Assembly (NCBI GenBank): GCA_963794325.1
Contig: CAWCDG010000005.1
Location: forward strand, 224,001 to 288,000
Reading direction: 5' to 3'
DNA from: an uncultured delta proteobacterium
Lineage (GTDB): Bacteria; Desulfobacterota; Binatia; Binatales; Binataceae
Length of the DNA: 64,000 nucleotides
Translations under genes and position numbers: made by a program
Shown here: positions 4,394 through 44,527 of the stretch, piece by piece
Numbering within the stretch: the first letter of the stretch is position 1
Layout of the letters: every line of letters starts with the position of its first letter
The notes under the pieces: generated by a model
What the model was told of the DNA's origin: nothing
Seen by the model: the letters and a program-made list of their open reading frames with translations, nothing else
Databases searched by the model: none

Positions 4394-5968
4394 ATGGCGA
4401 CAATCAACGACAAGATCACGATCAGGCGTGCACTGATAGGCGTCGCCGACAAGGCCGGTGTCGCGGACTTCGCCAAAGCACTGGTGCGCCACGGCGTCGA
4501 AATCGTATCGACGGGCGGTACGATGGCGGCTCTGGAAGCGGCTGGCGTCAAGGTGAGGTCGGTTGAGAATTTCACCGGCTCGCCCGAGATGCTCGATGGC
4601 CGGGTGAAGACGCTGCATCCGAAGATTCACGGCGGCATCCTCGCCCGGCGCGGTGAGGAGAGCCATCAGCGTCAAATGCTTCAACATGAAATCGAGCCGA
4701 TCGACTTGGTGGTCGTGAATTTCTATCCGTTCGAGAAGACGGTCGCGAAGCCCGGCGTGAGTCTCGACGATGCAATCGAAAATATCGACATCGGCGGACC
4801 TACGCTGGTGCGCGCGGCGGCGAAGAATTATGGCGATGTCACAGTCGTCGTTGATGCGGCCGACTACGCCACGATCGTCGCGGAACTCGACGCGAACAAG
4901 GGCGCGATGACGGCGAACACGCGATGGCGGCTGGCGCGCAAGGCATTCGCGCGGGTGACGGCGTACGACGCGGCAATCTCAAATTATCTCGGCACGCATT
5001 CGGGAGACGGCGACAAGACTAGTCTCGGCGAGACGTTCAGCCTCGCGCTCGAGCGCGAACAGGCGCTGCGCTACGGCGAGAATCCGCATCAGTCGGGCGC
5101 ACTCTACGGGCGCTTCCTGGAAATCACGCATCAGCTTCACGGCAAGGAGCTGTCGTTCAACAACGTCGTCGATATCAGCTCGGCGATGAACCTGATGCTC
5201 GAATTCGAGGACGAGCGGCGCGCAGTCGTCGCGATCCTCAAGCACAACACGCCGTGCGGCGTCGGCATCGCGGACACGCTCAAAGGCGCGTGGGACAAGG
5301 CGTTCGCAACCGACCCGGATTCGCCGTTCGGCGGCATCATCATTGCGAACCGCCCGTGGGACATGGAGTTCGCGCGCGCTGTCGATGAGCTGTTCACCGA
5401 AGTGCTGATCGGTCCCGCGTATCCTGAGGATGTGATCGCGTTCCTGCGCAAGAAAAAGAATCGGCGCGTGATGACGTTCGATTTGAAGGCGGTGGATCGC
5501 GGCGAGCTCGACGTCAAGAAGGTGCTCGGCGGATTGCTGGTGCAGACGCCGGACCTGGCGATCGAGGATCCGCGCAAGGGCAAAATCGTGACGCGGCGCG
5601 CGCCCACTGACGCCGAGATGCGCGCGCTCACCTTCGGAGTCAAGGTCTGCAAGCACATCAAGTCTAATGCGATCGCGTTCGTTGCCGAGGATCGCACGCT
5701 GGCGGTTGGCGGCGGCGCGACCTCGCGAATCGATCCGGTGTACGCAGCGCGCGAGAAGGCCGCGCGACTCAAGGTCCGGCTCGAAGGTTCGGTGCTGGTG
5801 TCGGAAGCGCTGTTTCCGTTTCCGGACGGCCCAACCCTCGCGGCCGAGGCGGGCGCGACGGCGATCGCACAGCCCGGTGGCGCCGTACGCGACGACAAAG
5901 TGATCGAAGCCGCCGACAAGTTCGGCCTCGCCATGGTCTTCACCGGCGTGCGTCACTTCAGGCATTAG
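4394..5968 (+). CDS. purH: bifunctional AICAR transformylase / IMP cyclohydrolase
   Basis: GRVKTLHPKIHGGIL, IDIGGPT, LRYGENPHQ, C-terminal RHFRH. Confidence 0.97.
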   Translation: MATINDKITIRRALIGVADKAGVADFAKALVRHGVEIVSTGGTMAALEAAGVKVRSVENFTGSPEMLDGRVKTLHPKIHGGILARRGEESHQRQMLQHEIEPIDLVVVNFYPFEKTVAKPGVSLDDAIENIDIGGPTLVRAAAKNYGDVTVVVDAADYATIVAELDANKGAMTANTRWRLARKAFARVTAYDAAISNYLGTHSGDGDKTSLGETFSLALEREQALRYGENPHQSGALYGRFLEITHQLHGKELSFNNVVDISSAMNLMLEFEDERRAVVAILKHNTPCGVGIADTLKGAWDKAFATDPDSPFGGIIIANRPWDMEFARAVDELFTEVLIGPAYPEDVIAFLRKKKNRRVMTFDLKAVDRGELDVKKVLGGLLVQTPDLAIEDPRKGKIVTRRAPTDAEMRALTFGVKVCKHIKSNAIAFVAEDRTLAVGGGATSRIDPVYAAREKAARLKVRLEGSVLVSEALFPFPDGPTLAAEAGATAIAQPGGAVRDDKVIEAADKFGLAMVFTGVRHFRH

Positions 5969-5975
5969 CAGCACG

Positions 5976-7289
5976 ATGAAGGTGCTGGTCATAGGAAAAG
6001 GTGGGCGCGAACACGCGCTGGTTTGGCGGCTCCATCAGAGCGAGACGGTCTGGAAGATTTTCTGCGCGAGCGGAAATCCAGGCATCGATCAGATTGCGGA
6101 ACCGGTACCGATCGCGCCGACCGATGTCGCGGCGCTCGTGGAATTTGCAAAATCAAAATCCGTCGACCTGACCATAGTTGGTCCGGAAGATCCGCTCGCC
6201 GCCGGGATCGTCGATCAGTTCACGCGTGCTGGTCTGAAAATATTTGGGCCGACAGCGGCCGCATCGCAGCTCGAAACGAGCAAGTCGTTCGCGAAAGCAA
6301 TCATGCGCGAGGGCGGCGTGCCAACTGCCGACTTCGCCGCTTTCGACGATGCTGAATCCGCGCGGCGCTACGTGAAGGCGCGCACCGGCTCGATGGTGGT
6401 CAAGGCGGACGGACTCGCGCTCGGAAAAGGCGTCACGGTTTGCCACGACACGACCACGGCTCTGGAAGCCATCACAGATGCGATGGAGCGGCGGCGGTTC
6501 GGAGCCGCGGGCAGTCGAGTGATCGTCGAGGAGTTTCTGACCGGCGAGGAAATTTCATTCTTTGCGCTGTGCGACGGCGAGAACGCGATCCCGCTCGGCA
6601 CCTTCCAGGATCACAAGGCGATTTTCGACGGCGATCGCGGCCCCAACACCGGCGGGATGGGCGCATATTCGCCAGTCCCGCAATTCGGGCCCGAGATGGA
6701 AGCGCGCACGATGCGCGAAGTGATCTTGCCAACACTTGGCGCGATGAACGCGCGCGGGACTCCGTTTCGCGGAATGCTGTATGCAGGTTTGATGACCGAC
6801 GGCGAACGAATCAATGTGATCGAATTCAACGTCCGCTTCGGCGATCCGGAATGCGAACCTCAGATGATGCGGTTGGACAGCGACCTGGCGGAGATCCTGC
6901 TCGCTGCTGTTGAAGGCAAAGTGGCGAATGCCGCGGTCCGGCTGTCGCCGCGCAGTGCGGTCGCGGTCGTGCTCGCGTCGGGCGGATATCCGGGCGAATA
7001 CAAAAAGGGCATCGCGATTCACGGGCTGGACCGGCTCGAAGGCAACGTCCCGTCGGACATCAAGATAAAATGGGCGATGAAAAAGATTCGCGTGAAGGTT
7101 TTCCATTCGGGCACTGCGATGCGCGACGGACAGTTGGTGACTGATGGCGGGCGCGTGTTGACGGTGACCGCGATGGCGCCGGAGCTGGCGACGGCAGTCG
7201 ATGCGGCATACGAAGCGGCGGAAATGATCGAGTTCGAGGGACGTCACTTCCGCCGCGACATTGCGCGCCGCGCGCTCGGCCACTCGTGA
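5976..7289 (+). CDS. purD: phosphoribosylamine--glycine ligase
   Basis: GGREHAL, KADGLALGKGV, GPNTGGMGAY, EFNVRFGDPE. Confidence 0.97.
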   Translation: MKVLVIGKGGREHALVWRLHQSETVWKIFCASGNPGIDQIAEPVPIAPTDVAALVEFAKSKSVDLTIVGPEDPLAAGIVDQFTRAGLKIFGPTAAASQLETSKSFAKAIMREGGVPTADFAAFDDAESARRYVKARTGSMVVKADGLALGKGVTVCHDTTTALEAITDAMERRRFGAAGSRVIVEEFLTGEEISFFALCDGENAIPLGTFQDHKAIFDGDRGPNTGGMGAYSPVPQFGPEMEARTMREVILPTLGAMNARGTPFRGMLYAGLMTDGERINVIEFNVRFGDPECEPQMMRLDSDLAEILLAAVEGKVANAAVRLSPRSAVAVVLASGGYPGEYKKGIAIHGLDRLEGNVPSDIKIKWAMKKIRVKVFHSGTAMRDGQLVTDGGRVLTVTAMAPELATAVDAAYEAAEMIEFEGRHFRRDIARRALGHS

Positions 7290-36240: not shown

Positions 36241-37248
36241 ATGAAAATAATTTCCACAGTTGCGCTCCAACCTGCGCATCGCGCCGCGATTGCGCACGCC
36301 GTGCCCGGAGCCGAGGTGCTCGACCGGGAGGTTCGGTCGCGAGAGGACTTCAGCGAGCTGCTGAGCGGAGGATGCGATGTCCTGCTGACGTTCCGGCTGC
36401 CGCACGACGCCGTGGAACGAGCGCCGAACATCCGCTGGATTCAATTGCTCAGCGCGGGCGCCGACCATGCGCTGGGCGGCCCGCTCAAGGGCAGCTCGAT
36501 ACCGCTCACGACTGCCAGTGGGATTCATGCGACGCCGATCGCGGAATACACGCTAGGGTCGATGCTGGCATATGCGCATCGGATTCATCTGGCGATTCGC
36601 GCGCAGATTCGCCATGAGTGGTCGCGTTCCCGCGTCTTAACCGAAAATATCGACGAGCTCCGCGGGCACACGATTGGAATCATTGGCTACGGGTCAATCG
36701 GCAGGGAAACTGCGCGGCTCGCGCAAACATTCGGGATGACGGTGCTGGCGCTCAAGCGCGACCCGGCCAACCGCGCAGATACTGGATGGTGTCCCGCGGG
36801 GCTGGGCGATCCCGACGGCAAAATTCCCGCTCGCTTCTACGGTCCCGATGAACGCGAAGCGATCTTGCGCGACAGCGACTACGTGTCGGTCACGCTCCCG
36901 CTCAGCGCGCACACGCGCAAATTTATCGGCGCACGGGAAATCGCCGCGATGAAACCGGGCGCATACCTGGTCAACATCGGGCGCGGCCAGGTGATCGACG
37001 AGGCCGCGATGATCGCGGCGCTGAAGGCGGGCAAGATTGGCGGCGCGGGGCTGGACGTATTCGAGCACGAGCCGCTCGAACCGGACAGTCCGCTGTGGGA
37101 CATGGAGAACGTGATTCTGACGCCACACGTGTCGGGCGACAATCGCGGGTATATGGACAAGGCCTGCGAGCTATTCGTAGAGAACCTGAAACGCTTCGCC
37201 GCCAATCGTCCGCTGCTGAACCTGGTCGATCCGAACCTCGGCTATTAG
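36241..37248 (+). CDS. D-2-hydroxyacid dehydrogenase family protein
   Basis: GIIGYGSIG, LVNIGRG, LDVFEHEPL, TPHVSG. Confidence 0.93.
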   Translation: MKIISTVALQPAHRAAIAHAVPGAEVLDREVRSREDFSELLSGGCDVLLTFRLPHDAVERAPNIRWIQLLSAGADHALGGPLKGSSIPLTTASGIHATPIAEYTLGSMLAYAHRIHLAIRAQIRHEWSRSRVLTENIDELRGHTIGIIGYGSIGRETARLAQTFGMTVLALKRDPANRADTGWCPAGLGDPDGKIPARFYGPDEREAILRDSDYVSVTLPLSAHTRKFIGAREIAAMKPGAYLVNIGRGQVIDEAAMIAALKAGKIGGAGLDVFEHEPLEPDSPLWDMENVILTPHVSGDNRGYMDKACELFVENLKRFAANRPLLNLVDPNLGY

Positions 37249-37255
37249 CTTCACG

Positions 37256-37284
37256 TTGACACTGGCTATCGGCTGTTCTAGATT
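37256..37284 (+). promoter_or_regulatory. sigma70-type promoter of the exosortase operon
   Basis: TTGACA-17 nt-TAGATT, 41 nt upstream of ATG 37326. Confidence 0.6.
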
Positions 37285-37325
37285 CACGCCGCGTTCCGCT
37301 AATCAGTATCGATACAAACAAAATA

Positions 37326-39074
37326 ATGGCGAAAGGTGCGCATTCGCTGGCACAGGGTACTACCCTGGAACCGTCGATCGCGCCGGATACGATTCCGATC
37401 GCGTCGGGCTCGCGTGATCTCAATCGCCAGGTCTCCGCACCCCCATACGTCGCGTTCCTGATCGTCGTTCTGTCCGGCGAAGTTATAGCTTACTACCGTT
37501 TTTCAAATTCAGCGGCGATTCTCATGCAAGGCGGTCCCGACGTCCGCTACTTGCTGATCATGCTCACGGAATGGATCCGCTACATGATCCTGGCTGCGGC
37601 AGCGACGACGATTCTGCTGAGCCGGAACGAGTTTGCCGCGACAGCGATGCGGATGTGGGTCACCCCGGTTCCGATTTCCAGACGCAAGAAAATTCTCGCG
37701 ATTCAAGTGATACTGGCGGGCGCGCTGGTGGCGTGGAGCGGCATCCGTCCCAGGTATTTTGCGTCGCCGGAAGCTGTCGCGGGCTGGGCGCTGGTCCGGC
37801 TGGCGCTGGCCATGGGCGCGATGGCGACGTTCGCGATCGCATTTACTCCACTCGAGGTCTGGCGCGAATGGTACCTCGCGCGGCCGGGCGCATTCCGAGC
37901 AGGCCTCGTCGTTGGACTCGTCGCCGGGCCCGTCCTGCGAAACTTCCTTCCAATGTTCTCTTCGGCAATGTGTGAGATTCCTATTCTGACGGCGGCGATG
38001 TACGACTTTACCATTTGGATCGCGGCCGCGACGCTGAGGGCGCTTGGACAGCATGCGGTGATCAACTGGCAGCGCCAGTCCATCGGGGTCCCGGGTTTCA
38101 GGGTTATTGTCTCGCCGCAATGCGCGGGAATCGATGGCATCGTTGTTATCACGCTTTTTCTTACGGCATATCTCTGGTTTTGCCGCCGCGATTTGCGATT
38201 CCCGGTTGCTCTGATCCTTCTTCCGCTGGGCATGATTCTGAGTTGGATTTTGAACGACGTCCGGCTCACGGCGTTGATAATGATTGGCCCGCACAATCCG
38301 AAGATCGCGATAGGATTTTTTCACACGATCGCAGGATGGGCCTTCCTCAATCTGCTGGGAATCGCGATGGTTGTATCGAGCCGGACTATGTCCATCTTCC
38401 GCGCGGAACCACTCGACGCGCTCCCGCAGGCGAGCGAGCGAACCTCGTCAGCGGACATGTATATCCTTCCGATGCTGGTGACACTCGCGGTCGGGATGCT
38501 GACCCGGCCGTTCGCGGCGTCACTCGACTTTCTATATCCGTTGACCGTGATTGCAACCGCCGCGGTCTTGTTCGCGTATCGCGGCAAGATCTTGGCACTC
38601 GGATGGAATCCAGACTGGACCGCGCCAGCGGCGGGCGCCGTGGTTTTTGCGATCTGGATTGCGATCGCGCGACAGTCCGGGACGTTGCACGATTCGGCGA
38701 TGGCGGCTTCGTTGCAAAGCCTTCCTGATTGGGACCGCTGCTGCTGGCTAGTATTCCGGGTGGCGGGCGCGGTGATCAGCGTGCCTATCGCGGAAGAGTT
38801 GTTTTTTCGCGGTTACCTGTTGAGAAAGCTGGTCTCGGCGGACTTCGAATCCGTCGATGCGCGGCAGTTCACCTGGATGTCTTTTCTAATCTCGTCGATG
38901 TTATTCGGCGTGCTGCATCGTAATTGGATCGGCGGCATCCTTGCGGGGATGGGCTTCGCAATCGTGCAATATCGGCGCGGACGGCTGACCGACGCAATCG
39001 TCGCGCATTCCGCCTGCAATGCGCTGGTGGCGGCGTACGTGATAGCGACGGGCAGTTGGGGACTATGGAATTAG
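37326..39074 (+). CDS. xrtE: exosortase fused to CPBP (CAAX/Abi) intramembrane protease, exosortase E/protease-like
   Basis: Polytopic membrane protein. Exosortase triad: Cys in VSPQCAGIDG, Arg in LNDVRLTALI, His in FFHTIAGW. C-terminal CPBP motifs PIAEELFFRG, FGVLH, AHSACN. Confidence 0.88.
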   Translation: MAKGAHSLAQGTTLEPSIAPDTIPIASGSRDLNRQVSAPPYVAFLIVVLSGEVIAYYRFSNSAAILMQGGPDVRYLLIMLTEWIRYMILAAAATTILLSRNEFAATAMRMWVTPVPISRRKKILAIQVILAGALVAWSGIRPRYFASPEAVAGWALVRLALAMGAMATFAIAFTPLEVWREWYLARPGAFRAGLVVGLVAGPVLRNFLPMFSSAMCEIPILTAAMYDFTIWIAAATLRALGQHAVINWQRQSIGVPGFRVIVSPQCAGIDGIVVITLFLTAYLWFCRRDLRFPVALILLPLGMILSWILNDVRLTALIMIGPHNPKIAIGFFHTIAGWAFLNLLGIAMVVSSRTMSIFRAEPLDALPQASERTSSADMYILPMLVTLAVGMLTRPFAASLDFLYPLTVIATAAVLFAYRGKILALGWNPDWTAPAAGAVVFAIWIAIARQSGTLHDSAMAASLQSLPDWDRCCWLVFRVAGAVISVPIAEELFFRGYLLRKLVSADFESVDARQFTWMSFLISSMLFGVLHRNWIGGILAGMGFAIVQYRRGRLTDAIVAHSACNALVAAYVIATGSWGLWN

Positions 39075-40118
39075 CGCCTCGACCTTTCCGGCTTACGACC
39101 GGGGCGAGCGCAGCGGTGTTCTCGATTTTGGCGGCCGGCCTGATTGCCGGTTCCATCCTCTATACACACATCGCCGCGACCCACCCGGGTGCACTGGTGG
39201 GAATGCCGGCGCTTGCGGGGATGAACAACCTGAGGCTGTCGCGCTTTCTGCTGGGCGCGGGGATCTGGGCTGCGGCCGTACTGATGTGGAGCTTCGCGCT
39301 CCAGCGGCTATTTCCGATGGACGCGTCCGATCGCATGATGACGCGAGGCCTCTGGTTCGATTCGATCTGGTTCGGCGGGGAGCTGGCGCGCCAACTGACC
39401 TGGATACCCCTGTATTTCGTTTTTCTCATCTGGATCAAGCGCAACCTGCTCGGCAACTTCGAATTGATTGCGCCAGGAACGATGCCACGCGCGATGCTGC
39501 TGATCGTAGGCAATATTGGCCGGTGATTTTCTCGCCTACCTAAGTCACATCGCACGGCATCGATTCGATTTTCTGTGGAATTTTCATGCCGTCCACCACT
39601 CGCAAAGGGAACTCAACTTATTCACGCAGCATCGCTTTCACGACCTTGATACTTTCGCCGACATGGCGATCAGGACTTTGCCGGTTTTGATTCTGACGCC
39701 GGGTCTCGTCGTGGTTGGCGTTTACAATACTGTGGCGCTGATTCATTTTCGCCTCTACCATTGCCCGATCCGATCGAACTACGGACCGTTGCGATACATC
39801 CTGGTGACGCCGCAGTCTCATCGCATTCATCACGCGAGCGATCCGCGCCTGCAGAATAGTAATTTCGGAATATTCTTTAGCGTGTGGGATCATATTTTCG
39901 GGACGCAGCATCGCTCCTACGATGAGTACGAAGTACAGCTCGGCCTTCAGGATGTTGCCTTTCCCGTCGAACAGGACGCTTCCGTAGGCGAATTTGTCGC
40001 AGCGTATGCGGCGCAACTGGTCTATCCGCTCGCGAGACTTCTACACGCGACTACACCCGCAACGGCGCCAGAGTTAGTGGGCAACAAAGGATTTGAAATA
40101 ACGAAGTCATCCGAGTAG
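39065..40118 (+). CDS. sterol desaturase / fatty-acid hydroxylase superfamily protein, frameshifted at 39509-39510
   Basis: His boxes HIARH, HAVHH, HRIHH and NFG...S.WDHIFGT. ATG 39065 overlaps the end of xrtE; deleting one G gives LLIVAILAGDFLAY. Confidence 0.85.
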
Positions 40119-40149
40119 ATAAGGCTGTCACTGGGGAGGATCAGATTGG

Positions 40150-40338
40150 ATGAGAGATGCGTTGCGAGTCGCCGGGGTTGTGGCGTTGATCGTATTCGTT
40201 CTCGTACCGGGAGCCGCGTTTGCGGGGGCCCCAGTGGCGGCGCCTGAGCTCGATCCAGGTCTAGGTATAGCGGGGTTGGCGTTGCTGGGTGGCACCGCCG
40301 CTTTTGTAGTCGAGCGCTATCGCCGGCGTTCGAAGTAA
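40150..40338 (+). CDS. APELDP-CTERM micro-substrate 1 (core GAPVA)
   Basis: 25-aa signal ending AFA, GAPVA, APELDP, TM helix, ERYRRRSK; GGAGG RBS. Confidence 0.88.
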   Translation: MRDALRVAGVVALIVFVLVPGAAFAGAPVAAPELDPGLGIAGLALLGGTAAFVVERYRRRSK

Positions 40339-40382
40339 GAGACTGGTAACCGGGGGAGATTGGGTTCGTCAGAGAGGATCAG

Positions 40383-40568
40383 ATGGAGAATGCGTTGCGA
40401 GTGGCTGGGGTTGTGGGATTGATAGTCTTCGTTGTCGCGCCCAGAGCCGCGTTAGCAGGTGCGGTCGGCGCACCTGAGCTCGACCCGAGCCTCGGCATCG
40501 CGGGGTTAGCGTTGCTGGGTGGCACCGCCGCTTTTGTAATCGAGCGTTATCGGCGCCGCGCGAAATAA
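40383..40568 (+). CDS. APELDP-CTERM micro-substrate 2 (core GAVG)
   Basis: Signal ending ALA, GAVG, APELDP, TM helix, ERYRRRAK; GAGG RBS. Confidence 0.88.
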   Translation: MENALRVAGVVGLIVFVVAPRAALAGAVGAPELDPSLGIAGLALLGGTAAFVIERYRRRAK

Positions 40569-40587
40569 CCGGGAGGAGTCGGACTCA

Positions 40588-40773
40588 ATGAAAGATATGA
40601 TCCGCTTCGCGGGGGTCCTTGCGTTGATTGCATTCGTTCTCGCACCGGGAGCCGCGTTCGCTGGTATCACGCCGGCGCCTGAGCTCGATCCAAGCCTGGG
40701 TATCGCTGGGTTGGCGTTGATGGGTGGAACTGCAGCCTTTGTAATCGAGCGTTATCGGCGGCGTTCGAAATAA
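40588..40773 (+). CDS. APELDP-CTERM micro-substrate 3 (core GITP)
   Basis: Signal ending AFA, GITP, APELDP, TM helix, ERYRRRSK; GGAGGAG RBS. Confidence 0.88.
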   Translation: MKDMIRFAGVLALIAFVLAPGAAFAGITPAPELDPSLGIAGLALMGGTAAFVIERYRRRSK

Positions 40774-40792
40774 CCGGGAGGAGTCGGATTCA

Positions 40793-40975
40793 ATGAAAGA
40801 TACGATCCGAGTCGCGGGGGTCCTTGCATTGATCGCGTTCGTTCTCGCACCGGGAGCCGCGTTGGCGAGTGTGGGCGCGCCTGAGCTTGATCCAGGCATG
40901 AGCGTCGCTGGGTTGGCGTTGCTGGGCGGTTCAGCCGCTTTTGTAATCGAGCGTTATCGGCGCCGCCCGAAGTAA
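40793..40975 (+). CDS. APELDP-CTERM micro-substrate 4 (core SVG)
   Basis: Signal ending ALA, SVG, APELDP, TM helix, ERYRRRPK; GGAGGAG RBS. Confidence 0.88.
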   Translation: MKDTIRVAGVLALIAFVLAPGAALASVGAPELDPGMSVAGLALLGGSAAFVIERYRRRPK

Positions 40976-41002
40976 GACCTCGATCCGTTCCTTTGCAGAA
41001 GG

Positions 41003-42454
41003 CTATCGGGCCTGCAGTTTCGCCAAGAACCGTTCCTTTAATCCATCGAACGGGCCGTTCGACATGAACAGCGCGATGTCGCCTGAGCGCGCGTCGGCGA
41101 GCATCCGCTCGAGGATTTCATCGTTCGACGCGCACGCAATCGCATGCGCTCCGCGCGCGCTGATCGCACTGGCGAGCGCGCCAGTTTCGAGCCGCTCGTT
41201 CGGGGCGATCTGATCGTTCTCCTTGAAATAGACCGGCCCCAGGTAAACCCGCGAGGCTCGATCGAATGCGCACGCGAATGCGTTTTGGAAAACGTTACGC
41301 CGCGCCGTGTTCGAGCGTGGCTCGAACGCCGCAAGTATACGACGGCCGGGAAATCGCTCGGCGATCGCTTCGAGCGTGACGCCGATCGCCGTCGGATGAT
41401 GCGCGAAGTCGTCCACCACGGTCACTCCTGCCGCCTCGCCGATCACCTGCTGCCGCCGCACCACGCCTTTGAAGGTCCGCAGGCCGGCGGCGATCTCGTC
41501 GCCGGAAACTCCAAACGCGCTGAGCAGCACGTAAACGCCGAGCGCATTGGCGACGTTCATGCGGCCGCCGATCGGCAGATGGATCGATTCGTGGATTCGA
41601 TCGCCGTCGCGCGTCACCGAAAATCTCGCGCCGTCTGAGCCTACCGTCACGTCCGTCGCGCGATATTCACCTTCGCGCAGTCCGTAGGTGAGCCGTCGCG
41701 AGCGAGCGCTCGCGCTGACTTCGAGTGCGTGCGGAAAATCGGCGCATACCGCGAGCACGCGCCACGAATCCATCTGATCGACGAGCGCACGGAAGCTCGA
41801 CTTCACGTGCTCGAGATCGCGATAGATATCCGCATGATCGAATTCCACCGCGGTGATTATCGCGCCGCTGGCGCGGTAGTGCAGAAACTTCGGGCCTTTG
41901 TCGAAAAATGCGGTGTCGTACTCGTCGCCCTCGATCACGAAGTCGGCGCCATTGCCTAACCGGTAGTTCGAGCCGAAATCGCTTGCGACACCTCCAACCA
42001 GCATCGATGGGTCGCGGCCCGCGGCTTCGAGCACGTGCGCCATCATCGCGGTTGAAGTGGTCTTGCCATGCGTTCCCGTGATCATCAGCACGCGCCGGTC
42101 CTTCAGAAAAAAATGCCAGAGCGCCTCGGGCATCGAGAGATATGGAATCGGCGAAGCGAGGAGCGCGACGGCTTCGGGATTGGCCGGCACGATCACGTTG
42201 CCCACCACGGCCAGGTCGGGAGCAGGCGATAAATTCGCGGGCGAAAATCCGGTCATCAATTCGACTCGCGAATTTTTGAGCAGCGACAGGGTTGGCTCGT
42301 AGAGCTGATTGTCGGAGCCGGTGACAGAAAATCCGCGCTCGACCAGCATCCCGGCCAGCGCAGCCATCGCGGTGCCGCCGACTCCTACAAGGTGCACGCG
42401 GCGGACGGACGCTGGAATGCGCGCGAGGCGCGATGCGCTTGCAACATCAGCCAC
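41003..42454 (-). CDS. mpl: murein peptide ligase (UDP-MurNAc:L-Ala-gamma-D-Glu-mDAP ligase)
   Basis: GVGGTAMAALA, TGTHGKTT, EGDEYDTAFFDK, DDFAHHPTAI, FEPRSNT. Confidence 0.93.
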   Translation of the reverse strand: MADVASASRLARIPASVRRVHLVGVGGTAMAALAGMLVERGFSVTGSDNQLYEPTLSLLKNSRVELMTGFSPANLSPAPDLAVVGNVIVPANPEAVALLASPIPYLSMPEALWHFFLKDRRVLMITGTHGKTTSTAMMAHVLEAAGRDPSMLVGGVASDFGSNYRLGNGADFVIEGDEYDTAFFDKGPKFLHYRASGAIITAVEFDHADIYRDLEHVKSSFRALVDQMDSWRVLAVCADFPHALEVSASARSRRLTYGLREGEYRATDVTVGSDGARFSVTRDGDRIHESIHLPIGGRMNVANALGVYVLLSAFGVSGDEIAAGLRTFKGVVRRQQVIGEAAGVTVVDDFAHHPTAIGVTLEAIAERFPGRRILAAFEPRSNTARRNVFQNAFACAFDRASRVYLGPVYFKENDQIAPNERLETGALASAISARGAHAIACASNDEILERMLADARSGDIALFMSNGPFDGLKERFLAKLQAR

Positions 42455-43577
42455 TGGCGAGTGCGTCCATGATCAAATCGTGAATCTTCGGGCGGAAGTC
42501 GCGAATCTTCTGATTGTCGCGCCGCGGATGAACGCGGTTGGTCAGCATCGAGATCGCAACTTCGCTCTCCGGCTCGATCCAGATAGAAGTCCCGGTGAAG
42601 CCGAGATGCCCGACAGCCGCAGGCGAGAAGCGATGGCCCGAGCTGGAATGCTCGGCCGACGGCGTGTCCCATCCGAGCGCCCAGGTCGAGCCGGGCACGG
42701 TCGCATCGCGGGTCCAGAACTCGCGGATTATTTTCTGCGGCACGAAATCCGAGCGTCCCGCGTAACAGGCGATCAGCTCGCCAGCGATTCGATCGACCTC
42801 GCGCACCGGCGCGAACAGTCCCGCATGACCGGCGACTCCGCCCATCGCGAAGGCGTTCTCGTCGTCAACCTCGCCGACCAGCAGTCGCTTGCGTGAAGGG
42901 CAAATCTCGGTTGGCGCGAACATGTCGGGGACCGGCTCGAGGCGCCGCGACCGAACATGCGAGATGTCTATATAATCGGTCGCGCGCAAACCGAGCGGGC
43001 GGAAAATTTTCTCGCGGCAGAATCGGTTGAGCGCGACGCTCGATACCTTCTCGATCGTTTCGCCGAGCAGGATGAATCCAAGATCCGAGTATATAGTTTT
43101 GGTCGCGGGCGTCGCTTCGGGTTTCTCGCGATGAATCTCCTCGTAGGCGAACTCCTTGGCGCCGTAGCTCGCCATGAAATTCACCCGCCCGCCTTTTTCG
43201 ATTTCCGCAATCCGCTGATAGAACGGACGCCACGCCGCCAGGCCCGAACAATGCGCCAGCAGATGCCGAAACGTGATGACGGTCTTGCCGTGCACGCCAA
43301 AGTTCGGGAAAAAGCGCGTCGCGCGATCGTCGAGGCGAAACTTGCCGTCGCGCGCCAGAATCATCAGCGCGACCGTCGTCGCCAGCGCCTTGGTGAGCGA
43401 CGACAGGTCGTAAACAGTTTCGAGTTTGGCTGGCGAACGGGCCGGCTCGATCGACCTGAATCCGAACGCGCCTTCGAACGCGACATCCGCGCCGTGCCGC
43501 ACGACCAGCGTCGCGCCGGGAATCACCCCTTGCTCGACCGCGTCGTTGAAAGCCTGCTCGACCTCACTCCAACCCAA
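42447..43577 (-). CDS. serine hydrolase, beta-lactamase/AmpC-like family
   Basis: SLTK, YSDLGF, GHAGLF, GHLGFTGTS, LTNRVHP. Confidence 0.9.
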   Translation of the reverse strand: MGWSEVEQAFNDAVEQGVIPGATLVVRHGADVAFEGAFGFRSIEPARSPAKLETVYDLSSLTKALATTVALMILARDGKFRLDDRATRFFPNFGVHGKTVITFRHLLAHCSGLAAWRPFYQRIAEIEKGGRVNFMASYGAKEFAYEEIHREKPEATPATKTIYSDLGFILLGETIEKVSSVALNRFCREKIFRPLGLRATDYIDISHVRSRRLEPVPDMFAPTEICPSRKRLLVGEVDDENAFAMGGVAGHAGLFAPVREVDRIAGELIACYAGRSDFVPQKIIREFWTRDATVPGSTWALGWDTPSAEHSSSGHRFSPAAVGHLGFTGTSIWIEPESEVAISMLTNRVHPRRDNQKIRDFRPKIHDLIMDALASG

Positions 43578-43600
43578 CGCCCATCCTCCAAAAACTGCCG

Positions 43601-44527
43601 TTAATGTGAAACGGCCGGCTCCGTAAAAATAATCCGGCGCGCGCTGGAATCGATTCGCGCGACCACGCCGAACGGAATCGTAAAATTCTCAGTGCCATGC
43701 CCGGCTTCGACGCCGTACAGCACGGGACATCCGAGGCCCGCGGTCTGCTCGGCAGCGAAGCGCGCTATCAATTGAGTCTCCTGCTCATTTCCATCGATCG
43801 CGCGAATCGCGCCGAAAACAATTCCCGCAACTCTGCCGAGCGCTCCCGACTGGCGCAACTGCACGAGCATCCGGTCGATACGATAAGCCTTCTCGCCGGT
43901 GTCTTCGAGGAACAAAATTCGCCCGTCGAAGCGCGGCTCGAACGGCGTGCCGATCATCGCAACCAGCACCGACAGGCATCCGCCGATAACTTCGCCCTGC
44001 GCTCTCCCGGGATGCATCGCTTCGCGCGCCTCGAGTTCGAAGCCGTCGAGCTTGCCGGTGAGCAGTCCTTGCAGGTGTTCGAGCGCGCGCGGACTCAAGC
44101 CTCGGGCAAAATCCATCGCGACCATCGGTCCGTGAAACGACACAATTCCTGCTAGATCGACCAGCGCGTTGAGCAGGAATGTGGGGTCCGAAAAGCCGAC
44201 GAAAATTTTTGGCGTGCGCGCAATCGCCTTGAAATCGAGGAGCGGCAGCAGCCGCCCGCATCCGTAACCGCCACGCGCAGAAAAAATCGCCTTGACCTCG
44301 GGGTCGGCGAAGTAGGTTTGAAGCTCACTCGCGCGCTCGCGATCATCGCCAGCTAAAATCCCGGAACGCGCCAGCACCCGCTCCGAAACTTTGACTCGGT
44401 AGCCCATCGAGCCAAGCACGTTGACGCCGCGCTCGAGATGCGCCCGCTCGATCGCGGCGGCGGACGCGACGACGGCTACCGTCTCGCCCGGTTGGAGCGC
44501 GTCAGGTTTGATTGGTTTGTTCTTCAC
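43601..44527 (-). CDS. ldcA: LD-carboxypeptidase (family S66)
   Basis: ARGGYG, GFSD, HGPM, LFLED, GHG. Confidence 0.9.
   Translation of the reverse strand: MKNKPIKPDALQPGETVAVVASAAAIERAHLERGVNVLGSMGYRVKVSERVLARSGILAGDDRERASELQTYFADPEVKAIFSARGGYGCGRLLPLLDFKAIARTPKIFVGFSDPTFLLNALVDLAGIVSFHGPMVAMDFARGLSPRALEHLQGLLTGKLDGFELEAREAMHPGRAQGEVIGGCLSVLVAMIGTPFEPRFDGRILFLEDTGEKAYRIDRMLVQLRQSGALGRVAGIVFGAIRAIDGNEQETQLIARFAAEQTAGLGCPVLYGVEAGHGTENFTIPFGVVARIDSSARRIIFTEPAVSH

What the first reader, a model, noticed from the sequence alone, without database searches (positions are those of the whole stretch)
40150..40975. Four precursors with conserved leader and follower around a 3-5 residue variable core
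Seen: all four have a 25-aa signal ending A-x-A and a near-invariant 32-aa tail, APELDP(G/S)xxxAGLALxGGxAAFVxERYRRRxK. Only the segment between them varies in length: GAPVA, GAVG, GITP, SVG. Known sorting-signal substrates carry a domain or a long low-complexity region (from memory, VPEID-CTERM proteins are roughly 80-120 aa). Here the mature product would be under about 10 residues. Conserved flanks around a variable core are the hallmark of RiPP or peptide-pheromone precursors. An alternative is that the uncleaved two-helix hairpin or the released TM tail is the functional unit.
Basis: partly seen in the sequence, partly recalled or inferred. Interest (0 to 1): 0.85.

Follow-up and report, generated by a model that had tools for sequence, protein, structure and literature searches.

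The report
Tiny tandem substrates of exosortase E
Four tandem 60-62-residue genes encode proteins that are almost nothing but an export signal and an exosortase sorting signal, which turns out to be normal for the unstudied exosortase E system encoded beside them.

Summary
Four tandem ORFs (40150-40975, + strand) encode 60-62-aa proteins. Each has a 25-aa signal peptide ending A-x-A, a 3-5-aa variable segment and a 32-aa tail, APELDP-TM helix-ERYRRRxK.

They are real genes. In 24 independent pairs of close homologues PELDP has 28 synonymous and 0 non-synonymous changes. dN/dS is 0.16 for the tail, 0.41 for the signal and 1.2 for the core.

They lie in one operon-like unit with an exosortase E/CPBP-protease fusion (TIGR04162, 204 bits, cut-off 150). 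They are the only tail-bearing ORFs in the genome. Pfam 38.1 labels close homologues VPEID-CTERM.

Small size is the family norm. At 65 of 80 XrtE loci from several phyla, adjacent tail-bearing genes have a median length of 63 aa, range 49-105. No longer relatives were found.

They are therefore dedicated XrtE substrates with almost no cargo. The RiPP/pheromone reading has no positive support: no modifying enzyme, no receptor, an unconstrained core. The fate of the 5-9-residue product is unknown and is inferred only. This is a new member of a known but unstudied kind.

The parts
37256..37284 (+). Promoter-like site (TTGACA-17-TAGATT) ahead of the XrtE gene; possible single promoter for the whole unit
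   Evidence: 10 of 12 matches. It was the only site in 36800-41400, and shuffles give a mean of 2.0, so this is weak evidence.
37326..39074 (+). Exosortase E / CPBP (CAAX-type) glutamic intramembrane protease fusion, XrtE, 582 aa
   Evidence: TIGR04162 204.1 bits (cut-off 150); TIGR03008 147.4 bits on residues 398-581; TIGR04178 46.3 bits on residues 260-349. Pfam Rce1-like on 474-567. C266, R313, H333 and E490, E491, R495, F527, H531, H561, N565 are invariant in 23 diverse homologues; it is the only exosortase in the genome.
39065..40118 (+). Fatty-acid hydroxylase superfamily membrane protein, split between two frames in this genome (ORFs 38924-39526 and 39516-40118) by a 1-nt insertion near 39513
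   Evidence: PF04116 on the 3' ORF; one intact 353-aa ORF at the same place in L123; the window has one extra base relative to L123, L120 and L124; only 100 bits to OlsE (cut-off 475).
40150..40338 (+). Mini-substrate 1, 62 aa: signal 1-25 (..AFA), core GAPVA, tail APELDP..ERYRRRSK
   Evidence: TIGR04161 13.9 bits, below cut-off 33. Identical to P0014, which carries PF27847 in the precomputed column.
40383..40568 (+). Mini-substrate 2, 61 aa: signal ..ALA, core GAVG, tail APELDP..ERYRRRAK
   Evidence: TIGR04161 17.6 bits. Identical to P0038, which carries PF27847.
40588..40773 (+). Mini-substrate 3, 61 aa: signal ..AFA, core GITP, tail APELDP..ERYRRRSK
   Evidence: TIGR04161 16.4 bits. 113 homologues of 51-72 aa.
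40793..40975 (+). Mini-substrate 4, 60 aa: signal ..ALA, core SVG, tail APELDP..ERYRRRPK
   Evidence: No TIGR04161 hit at E<=1. Own tail profile E about 4e-20. Identical to P0030.

Best explanation
The four genes are tandem paralogues encoding the dedicated substrates of the adjacent exosortase E/CPBP-protease fusion (XrtE). They form a VPEID-CTERM-type sorting system in which the 'cargo' is reduced to 3-5 residues. Shown: they are protein-coding and under selection. The selected parts are the A-x-A signal-peptidase site and the tail (PELDP, TM helix, ERYRRR). The piece between is free to vary in sequence but is kept short, small and uncharged. They are the only such ORFs in the genome, and XrtE is its only exosortase. 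The pairing of XrtE with an adjacent mini-gene recurs across phyla. Inferred: Sec export with the N and C termini inside; signal peptidase I cuts after A-x-A. The exosortase domain has its invariant Cys266/Arg313/His333 at the outer ends of TM helices (crude hydropathy). It cuts in or next to PELDP, which abuts the substrate's TM helix. This releases a 5-9-residue peptide ending in the conserved (A/V)PE part. By analogy with archaeosortase A, that peptide is passed to an envelope acceptor such as a lipid head-group amine, or else it is released. The fused CPBP domain then cuts or clears the remaining TM-ERYRRR stub. The tandem copies (1 to 6 in close relatives) would mainly set dosage. The neighbouring fatty-acid hydroxylase hints at a lipid partner, but it is frameshifted here. 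My confidence is about 0.75 for 'dedicated XrtE substrates with vestigial cargo' and about 0.3 for the specific fate of the product.
For: XrtE identity: TIGR04162 204 bits against a cut-off of 150, with intact catalytic motifs. Tail similarity to VPEID-CTERM: full-length 1-31/31 matches for 3 of 4 peptides, though below cut-off. PF27847, named VPEID-CTERM, is attached to the window's own peptides 1 and 2. Exclusivity: the peptide profile finds 4 places in the genome. The tail profile run over 82,098 ORF C-termini finds the four at E about 1e-20, and the next best hit is E 1.9. There is one exosortase. Recurrence: 63 of 80 XrtE loci have a tail-bearing ORF at E<1e-3 (81 ORFs), and four more have one at E 0.001-0.0023. 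Of 83 genes with an assigned start, in 65 loci, 81 are on the XrtE strand. The nearest lies within 300 bp of XrtE in 60 of 65 loci. 61 of 84 hit TIGR04161 at E<=0.1, best 2.3e-15. XrtE is the only neighbour conserved across loci. Selection: dN/dS is 0 for PELDP (28 synonymous, 0 non-synonymous), 0.19 for linker+TM, 0.17 for ERYRRRxK, 0.41 for the signal and 1.23 for the core (95% CI 0.77-2.15). Signal-peptidase site: Ala at -3 and -1 in 48 of 48, Pro at -6 in 47 of 48. Topology: C266 precedes a TM helix that ends in the loop RRDLR, and R313 and H333 sit at the opposite ends of the next two helices. Operon-like spacing: gaps of 19-44 nt between genes. Analogy: ArtA-dependent lipid anchoring needs the PssA and PssD homologues (PMC7157517, abstract read). 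Exosortases and archaeosortases share a Cys/Arg/His triad, and their motifs abut the TM helix (10.1101/2023.06.07.544157, passages read).
Against: No cleavage, product or acceptor has been observed for any XrtE system, and none can be shown here. The peptides score below the curated TIGR04161 cut-off (13.9-17.6 bits against 33), and the fourth gives no hit. The signal-peptidase site rests on rules and conservation, not on a trained predictor or an experiment. A product of 5-9 residues with an unconstrained core is an odd thing to 'sort', so the true functional unit may be something else (see rivals). The core dN/dS is inflated to an unknown degree by indels in a 6-column stretch. The fatty-acid hydroxylase is found in only 7 of 81 loci. 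It is frameshifted in the window, and only short tblastn matches to it remain in L136, so it cannot be essential to the system. 13 of 80 XrtE loci showed no tail-bearing ORF at E below 0.003. A few of those are cut by contig ends, for example L048, L087 and L096.
Confidence: 0.75

Rival explanations
1. The uncleaved protein (a two-helix hairpin) or the released TM-ERYRRR stub is the functional unit. It would be a membrane microprotein that regulates or occupies XrtE/CPBP or another membrane process, and the 'cargo' is merely the loop.
For: The most strongly selected part is the tail: TM 0.19, ERYRRRxK 0.17. The TM segment carries small-xxx-small motifs (GLALLGG) that suit helix packing. The loop is kept short (3-8 residues in 139 of 140) and almost free of charge, as expected for a tight turn at the membrane surface. 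The acidic-basic ERYRRR motif is more specific than a plain positive cluster.
Against: The A-x-A site is invariant with a variable -2 position and Pro at -6, which is the signature of a cleaved signal peptide. The N-terminal helix evolves about twice as fast as the C-terminal one, with non-overlapping bootstrap intervals (0.31-0.55 against 0.14-0.24). In distant relatives it is not alignable, and many matches cover only query positions 28-60. That argues against a specific helix-helix pair. Strong conservation of a tail is also what a recognition signal for an intramembrane enzyme would show.
Confidence: 0.12
2. The short cores are bioactive: diffusible peptide signals or RiPP-like natural products, with the signal peptide as leader, the sorting tail as follower, and several cores per array giving a small library.
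For: The pattern is conserved flanks around a hypervariable core. There are 81 distinct cores among 140 parsed close homologues. Every copy within an array carries a different core: window, L130, L127, L121. The predicted +1 residue is Gly in 99 of 140. That would suit an amine nucleophile for ligation or head-to-tail cyclisation by a Cys transpeptidase (my inference).
Against: No enzyme of a known RiPP class, ABC exporter, receptor or two-component system lies in the unit. Its neighbours are housekeeping genes: 2-hydroxyacid dehydrogenase, Mfd, Mpl, LdcA. The core has no Cys or Lys and no positionally conserved Ser or Thr. Its dN/dS interval includes 1, so there is lack of constraint but no demonstrated diversifying selection. 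A specific receptor would be hard to reconcile with that. In distant XrtE systems the piece is 2 to about 50 residues of low-complexity His-, Gly-, Trp- or Pro-rich sequence. In most species representatives there is a single copy (51 of 65 loci).
Confidence: 0.08
3. The ORFs are non-functional: chance frames in a DNA repeat, or decayed remnants of longer sorted proteins.
For: They are very short. Three of four score below the curated model's cut-off and one does not score. One array copy in a relative is broken (L134).
Against: Codon-level purifying selection is strong: PELDP has 28 synonymous and 0 non-synonymous changes, and the tail dN/dS is 0.16. Each copy has its own ribosome-binding site. 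There are 113 homologues of 51-72 aa. Of the 80 representatives found in a library of 1.84 billion, 77 are 113 aa or less. Of the three longer ones, two are unrelated repeat proteins and one is a mis-framed gene call. No match among 865 candidates of 108-2000 aa (weak evidence).
Confidence: 0.02

Closest known systems
VPEID-CTERM / exosortase E (XrtE) system: NCBIfam TIGR04161 and TIGR04162, Pfam PF27847
   Same: The adjacent exosortase/CPBP fusion scores above the TIGR04162 cut-off. The tail has the same three parts and aligns end to end with TIGR04161 (1-31/31). PF27847, named VPEID-CTERM, is attached to two of the window's four peptides in the precomputed column. It is a dedicated, adjacent enzyme-substrate pair.
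   Different: The motif is (A/V)PELDP rather than VPEID, and the basic cluster is the specific ERYRRR. Scores are under the curated TIGR04161 cut-off. Arrays hold 1-6 tandem copies, whereas 51 of 65 other loci have one copy. Close relatives add a fatty-acid hydroxylase gene. That the family was first described in Alphaproteobacteria, and the wording of its description, are recalled and were not checked.
PEP-CTERM / exosortase A (XrtA, EpsH) systems
   Same: The enzyme superfamily is the same (TIGR04178 signature). The tail has the same logic: a PE-containing motif abutting a TM helix, then an Arg cluster. A PEP-CTERM-associated CPBP protein (TIGR03008) matches the C-terminal half of XrtE at 147 bits.
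   Different: Those systems have many dispersed substrates, often large or Ser/Thr-rich, and sit in exopolysaccharide loci (10.1101/2023.06.07.544157, passages read). Here there are four tiny adjacent substrates, one exosortase and no polysaccharide genes nearby.
PGF-CTERM / archaeosortase A (ArtA) lipid anchoring in Haloferax volcanii
   Same: It is a homologous Cys/Arg/His enzyme. The C-terminal helix is removed and a lipid is attached, and this depends on phosphatidylserine synthase and decarboxylase homologues (PMC7157517, abstract read; 10.1101/2023.06.07.544157, passages read). It is the model for the inferred transfer of the peptide to a lipid amine.
   Different: The substrate there is a large S-layer glycoprotein. 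No lipid attachment is shown for any bacterial exosortase. No PssA/PssD-like gene lies in this unit, only a frameshifted fatty-acid hydroxylase.
RiPP precursors with leader, core and follower (for example cyanobactin-type multi-core precursors)
   Same: Conserved flanks surround a short hypervariable core, there are several different cores per locus, and a protease/transpeptidase is encoded beside the precursors.
   Different: The leader is an ordinary Sec signal peptide and the follower is a membrane-spanning sorting signal. No modifying enzyme of a known RiPP class is present, and the core has no conserved modifiable residue. The comparison with cyanobactins is recalled, not tested.
MYXO-CTERM and related signals cut by CPBP-family myxosortases
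   Same: A CPBP (Rce1-like) intramembrane glutamic protease is dedicated to a C-terminal tripartite sorting signal. The XrtE C-terminal domain gives weak hits to the MrtP, MrtC and MrtJ models.
   Different: Those signals have an invariant Cys in the motif and no exosortase (10.1101/2023.06.07.544157, abstract and passages read). Here there is no Cys, and the CPBP domain is fused to an exosortase.

Membership tests
VPEID-CTERM / XrtE system | Exosortase E/protease fusion encoded beside the substrate and scoring above the TIGR04162 cut-off | tested here: met
   204.1 bits against a cut-off of 150 on residues 155-580. It lies 1.1 kb upstream on the same strand.
VPEID-CTERM / XrtE system | Tripartite signal at the extreme C-terminus: short motif abutting a hydrophobic helix, then a basic cluster | tested here: met
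   APELDP, then about 18 residues of linker and hydrophobic helix, then ERYRRRxK and the stop codon, in all four.
VPEID-CTERM / XrtE system | Score above the curated cut-off of TIGR04161 (33 bits) | tested here: not met
   17.6, 16.4 and 13.9 bits, and no hit at E<=1 for the fourth. In the whole genome nothing passes the cut-off.
VPEID-CTERM / XrtE system | Assignment to Pfam PF27847 (VPEID-CTERM, Pfam 38.1) | tested here: inconclusive
   The precomputed column attaches PF27847.1 to P0014 and P0038, which are identical to peptides 1 and 2, and to about a third of the 113 homologues. It does not attach it to P0030, which is peptide 4. The model is not in the local Pfam copy, so I could not score it myself.
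VPEID-CTERM / XrtE system | N-terminal Sec signal peptide | tested here: met
   There is a K/R/D n-region, a hydrophobic core of about 15 residues, Pro at -6 and A-x-A. Ala at -3 and -1 is invariant in 48 of 48 sequences with varied codons. This rests on rules and conservation only; no trained predictor was available.
VPEID-CTERM / XrtE system | Cleavage of the tail by XrtE | not testable with these tools
No experiment is known to me.
RiPP precursor | Post-translational modification enzyme of a known RiPP class encoded with the precursor | tested here: not met
   The unit holds only XrtE/CPBP and a fatty-acid hydroxylase, and the flanks are housekeeping genes. Across 81 loci XrtE is the only conserved neighbour.
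RiPP precursor | Core with conserved modifiable residues or under diversifying selection | tested here: inconclusive
   There is no Cys or Lys, and Ser plus Thr make up 17% without a fixed position. dN/dS is 1.23 with an interval of 0.77-2.15 that includes 1.
PEP-CTERM / XrtA type system | Many dispersed substrates per genome and a link to an exopolysaccharide locus | tested here: not met
   There are four adjacent substrates and no others, one exosortase and no polysaccharide genes in 29-46 kb of the window.
Secreted peptide pheromone system | Cognate receptor or sensor kinase and a dedicated exporter encoded nearby | tested here: not met
   None appears among the annotated neighbours or among the conserved neighbours of 81 loci.

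The most novel reading that the evidence does not exclude
XrtE systems are not protein-sorting systems at all but ribosomal short-peptide ligases. The mini-precursors would be consumed to make 5-9-residue peptides, most starting with Gly (99 of 140) and all ending in the conserved (A/V)PE. These would be amide-linked to a membrane lipid head group, giving a ribosomally encoded lipopeptide coat. Alternatively they would be joined head to tail through the free N-terminal Gly into small cyclic or polymeric peptides. Array copy number would set the dose and the free-running cores would give surface variability.
Probability: 0.2. Interest if true: 0.85.

Novelty: new member of a known kind. Interest (0 to 1): 0.48.

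Why it matters
What exosortases attach their substrates to has been open since the family was described. The passages I read in 10.1101/2023.06.07.544157 still call the transpeptidation step unknown. Ordinary substrates are large, glycosylated or low-complexity proteins that are hard to analyse. Here the whole product would be a peptide of 5-9 residues with a predictable mass. There is one enzyme, there are no competing substrates in the genome, and the core tolerates almost any small uncharged sequence, so it may accept a tag. Related systems occur in cultured strains, for example Silvibacterium bohemicum S15 (L089). That makes the linkage chemistry directly testable by mass spectrometry. The survey also corrects an expectation: for this exosortase class, substrates with almost no cargo are the rule (median 63 aa). 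This raises the question of what is actually being 'sorted'.

Tried and rejected
Decayed remnants of longer proteins: rejected.

Chance ORFs in a repeat: rejected.

Other, larger XrtE substrates in the same genome: none found, either with the peptide profile, with TIGR04161 (the other hits have E 0.38-5.6, are partial, and the same model 'rings' in 10 of 14 control genomes) or with my own tail profile. The genome is 85% complete, so one could still be missing.

A structured RNA in 36500-41500: no Rfam match at E<=0.1.

tRNA genes as an island marker: none in the window.

Direct repeats at the island borders: I compared the two junctions by eye only and saw no homology.

RNA evidence: no RNA holder was listed for 37300-41000. 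This is no evidence either way.

Literature:
- 'VPEID-CTERM' gave 0 papers.
- 'exosortase E' / 'XrtE' / 'VPEID' gave 40 papers. The 20 listed were on germ-cell culture or otherwise unrelated. One was a Curvibacter paper with a single 'exosortase E' occurrence, which I did not read.
- Three further searches gave general exosortase, myxosortase and archaeosortase papers but nothing on XrtE substrates.
- The 2012 J Bacteriol paper on archaeosortases and exosortases, which I recall as the source of the XrtE name, is not held. What it says about substrate size could not be checked and may already cover the 'small substrate' point.
- A term search in PMC1569441 found none of five phrases about short proteins.
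- Supplementary files were not requested.

My signal-cleavage heuristic for the distant loci often picks too early a site. I therefore report total lengths rather than cargo lengths for them.

Rows dropped:
- In one search I kept genes of 57-64 aa from L118-L136, L141 and the window (53 genes, 48 after removing identical DNA). I left out L137-L140 (distant), partial copies without an ATG, the two 72-aa genes (L124, L134) and the 207-aa read-through in L134.
- In one search, 5 of 145 sequences could not be parsed.
- In some searches, tail hits in L054 and L075 got no start codon and are not counted.
Full report
WHAT IS THERE. Window 40150-40975 holds four + strand ORFs of 62, 61, 61 and 60 codons. 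They align with 37 invariant columns of 62. Each has a 25-residue N-terminus: a charged start, a hydrophobic run, Pro-Gly, then A-F-A or A-L-A. A segment of 5, 4, 4 and 3 residues follows (GAPVA, GAVG, GITP, SVG). Then comes a 32-residue tail, APELDP(G/S)xxxAGLALxGGxAAFVxERYRRRxK, followed by the stop codon. The DNA copies are 69-86% identical and spaced 202-233 nt apart. Each ATG is preceded by a GGAGG-like site.

THE GENES ARE REAL AND WHERE SELECTION ACTS. A word-indexed search found 113 homologues, all 51-72 aa. A metagenome scan gave 24 contigs carrying such genes with their DNA. I took 48 distinct gene sequences of 57-64 aa and formed 24 phylogenetically independent nearest pairs.
- Signal: dN/dS 0.41 (bootstrap 0.31-0.55).
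- Core: 1.23 (0.77-2.15).
- PELDP: 0, with 28 synonymous and no non-synonymous changes.
- Linker plus TM helix: 0.19 (0.14-0.24).
- ERYRRRxK: 0.17 (0.11-0.26).
- The window's own six pairs give the same ranking.

The Ala residues at -3 and -1 of the putative signal-peptidase site are invariant in 48 of 48, each using three synonymous codons. The -2 position is L, F or S, and Pro at -6 is present in 47 of 48. So the reading frames are translated. The A-x-A site and the tail are under purifying selection, and the core is not constrained in sequence. The core value is probably inflated by indels in that stretch.

The core is nonetheless constrained in kind. In 140 parsed close homologues the segment between the A-x-A site and PELDP is 3-8 residues in 139 (mode 4). 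It begins with Gly in 99. It is made of G, V, A, T, P and S, with no K or E, 2% D and 1% R.

THE NEIGHBOUR. The 582-aa protein encoded at 37326-39074 scores 204 bits on TIGR04162, 'exosortase E/protease, VPEID-CTERM system' (cut-off 150). It carries the exosortase signature on residues 260-349 and a CPBP/Rce1-like domain on 398-581. In an alignment with 22 homologues at 28-74% identity, the invariant residues are C266, R313 and H333, and E490, E491, R495, F527, H531, H561 and N565. These are the triad expected of exosortases and the Glu-Glu/His motifs of CPBP proteases. That reading of the motifs rests on the passages I read in 10.1101/2023.06.07.544157 and on general knowledge.

A crude hydropathy reading places C266 just before a TM helix that ends in the loop RRDLR. 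R313 and H333 sit at the far ends of the next two helices. That puts all three on the outer face, where the substrate's PELDP would sit (inference). No solved structure matches the family by sequence.

Between XrtE and the four genes lies a fatty-acid hydroxylase superfamily gene. The gaps between genes are 19-44 nt, and one promoter-like site precedes XrtE.

EXCLUSIVE PAIRING. In the window's genome (4.45 Mb, 85% complete) the peptide profile finds only these four places. TIGR04178 finds one exosortase. A profile I built from 186 tails, run on the last 60 residues of 82,098 ORFs, finds the four at E about 1e-20, with the next hit at E 1.9. XrtE therefore has no larger substrate in the assembled genome.

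HOW GENERAL IT IS. A profile search of 1.84 billion representative proteins, with no length filter, returned 80 hits at E<=0.001. Of these, 77 are 113 aa or less. Of the three longer ones, two are unrelated beta-propeller-like repeat proteins and one is a mis-framed gene call through an array. A search restricted to 108-2000 aa found nothing among 865 candidates (weak evidence).

Starting from the enzyme instead, I collected 80 XrtE loci from species genomes labelled Acidobacteriota, Planctomycetota, Pseudomonadota (alpha, beta, gamma), Binatia and 'delta proteobacteria'/Myxococcales.
- 63 loci have at least one ORF with the tail at E<1e-3 (81 ORFs), and four more have one at E 0.001-0.0023.
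- With starts assigned, lengths are 49-105 aa, median 63 (79 genes).
- 81 of 83 genes are on the XrtE strand, 59 of them upstream.
- The nearest is within 300 bp of XrtE in 60 of 65 loci.
- 51 of 65 loci have a single copy.
- 61 of 84 hit TIGR04161 at E<=0.1, best 2.3e-15.
- XrtE itself is the only neighbour conserved across loci.

The pieces between signal and tail range from two or three residues to about 50. The longer ones are low-complexity His-, Gly-, Trp-, Pro- or Asp/Arg-rich stretches. So a near-absent cargo is the rule for this exosortase class, not a peculiarity of this window. The one such locus here, L075, has a longer ORF, but I did not survey them.

FAMILY NAME. The four peptides align end to end with TIGR04161 but score under its cut-off, and the fourth does not score. 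The precomputed Pfam column gives PF27847 for peptides 1 and 2 and for about a third of the close homologues. The atlas search names PF27847 'VPEID-CTERM' (Pfam 38.1), and its nearest clusters are 57-62 aa. The local Pfam copy lacks the model.

THE LOCAL LINEAGE. In close relatives the order 2-hydroxyacid dehydrogenase, XrtE, hydroxylase, mini-genes, mpl (opposite strand) is kept. Contigs that reach from the hydroxylase to mpl hold complete arrays of:
- 1 copy (L136);
- 2 copies (L120, L123, L125);
- 3 copies (L122, L124, L131, L133);
- 4 copies (L132, L134 and the window);
- 6 copies (L130).

All cores within an array differ. In a same-genus genome (G317, Mpl 90% identical) and a same-family genome (G263), mpl and the dehydrogenase gene lie about 100 bp apart, with no XrtE and no tail ORF. 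The 3.7-kb unit is therefore an accessory module. In a sample of 401 genomes of the phylum, only 2 have a match above the TIGR04162 cut-off. G+C in the unit is slightly lower, 0.52-0.61 against 0.62-0.65 in the flanks.

MECHANISM: WHAT IS SHOWN AND WHAT IS INFERRED. Shown:
- coding status and the pattern of selection;
- exclusivity in the genome;
- recurrent adjacency to XrtE;
- intact catalytic motifs.

Inferred:
- Sec export;
- signal peptidase I cleavage after A-x-A;
- exosortase cleavage at PELDP on the outer face;
- a product of 5-9 residues that keeps the conserved (A/V)PE part;
- transfer to an acceptor by analogy with ArtA, whose lipid anchoring depends on PssA/PssD homologues (PMC7157517, abstract);
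- removal of the TM-ERYRRR stub by the fused CPBP domain.

Whether exosortases are one-step transpeptidases is still open (10.1101/2023.06.07.544157, passages). The hydroxylase gene hints at a lipid partner. However, it is present in only 7 of 81 loci and is frameshifted here, and only short matches to it remain in L136.

RIVALS. Three are considered.
- A functional hairpin or stub. This is favoured by the fact that the tail is the best-conserved part and the loop is short and uncharged. It is weakened by the selected A-x-A site and by the faster, non-alignable N-terminal helix.
- A bioactive core (RiPP or pheromone). This is favoured by core diversity and the frequent N-terminal Gly. It is weakened by the absence of any modifying enzyme, exporter or receptor, by the lack of constraint on the core, and by the low-complexity pieces in distant systems.
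- Non-functional ORFs. This is rejected.

VERDICT. This is a new member of the VPEID-CTERM/XrtE kind. That kind is named in curated libraries, but I found nothing about it in the searchable literature. The founding paper could not be read. The value of the finding is practical: it offers a minimal, single-enzyme system in which the product of an exosortase could be identified.

No fold or docking evidence enters this report.

Noticed in passing
window 39460-39580 (extra base near 39513); ORFs 38924-39526 and 39516-40118: The fatty-acid hydroxylase gene between XrtE and the mini-genes is split over two frames by one extra base relative to L123, L120 and L124, where it is a single 353-aa ORF. 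This is either a pseudogene or an assembly error.
   Followed up: partly
window 37249-41002, compared with L148 2425-2526 and L149 2486-2579: The whole XrtE-hydroxylase-mini-gene unit (about 3.7 kb) is missing at the same site in a same-genus and a same-family genome, where mpl and the 2-hydroxyacid dehydrogenase gene are about 100 bp apart. By eye I saw no repeats at the borders. In G204 the genes beyond mpl are different.
   Followed up: partly
L134 1139-1762; L124 1214-1432; L136 662-961: The arrays show decay and rearrangement in relatives. In L134 the last copy is broken after PELDP and reads through for 207 aa. L124 has a 72-aa copy with an internal duplication of the AAFAG stretch. L136 has a single copy, and only short matches to the hydroxylase gene remain.
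   Followed up: no
L049 5152-5271, just upstream of its XrtE ORF at 5332-7002: A 40-codon frame looks like a signal peptide joined directly to the end of a tail (..LLLAAERSRSRRP) with no PE motif. It may be a deleted substrate gene. The tail profile gives E 15, so this is only an impression.
   Followed up: no
P0133, P0136, P0151, P0118; L113 and L114; L052 4949-5227; L014 1050-1388: Distant XrtE-type mini-proteins carry short low-complexity pieces of distinct flavours: His-Gly repeats, Trp-rich runs (WWPWWWDW), (NDDGRG)n repeats, and Gly/His/Lys-rich stretches. This suggests metal-binding or interfacial peptides.
   Followed up: no
window 41003-44527, minus strand: Downstream, on the opposite strand, lie a Mur-ligase family gene (Mpl-like), a beta-lactamase-family serine hydrolase and an LD-carboxypeptidase (S66). 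This is an ordinary peptidoglycan-recycling set, conserved in relatives that lack the XrtE unit.
   Followed up: partly
NCBIfam NF058583 (hit listed): A curated model named 'LAXTG motif-containing small protein' exists, so very small substrates are also catalogued for classical sortases. One of the 84 mini-proteins gave a weak hit to it (E 0.013).
   Followed up: no
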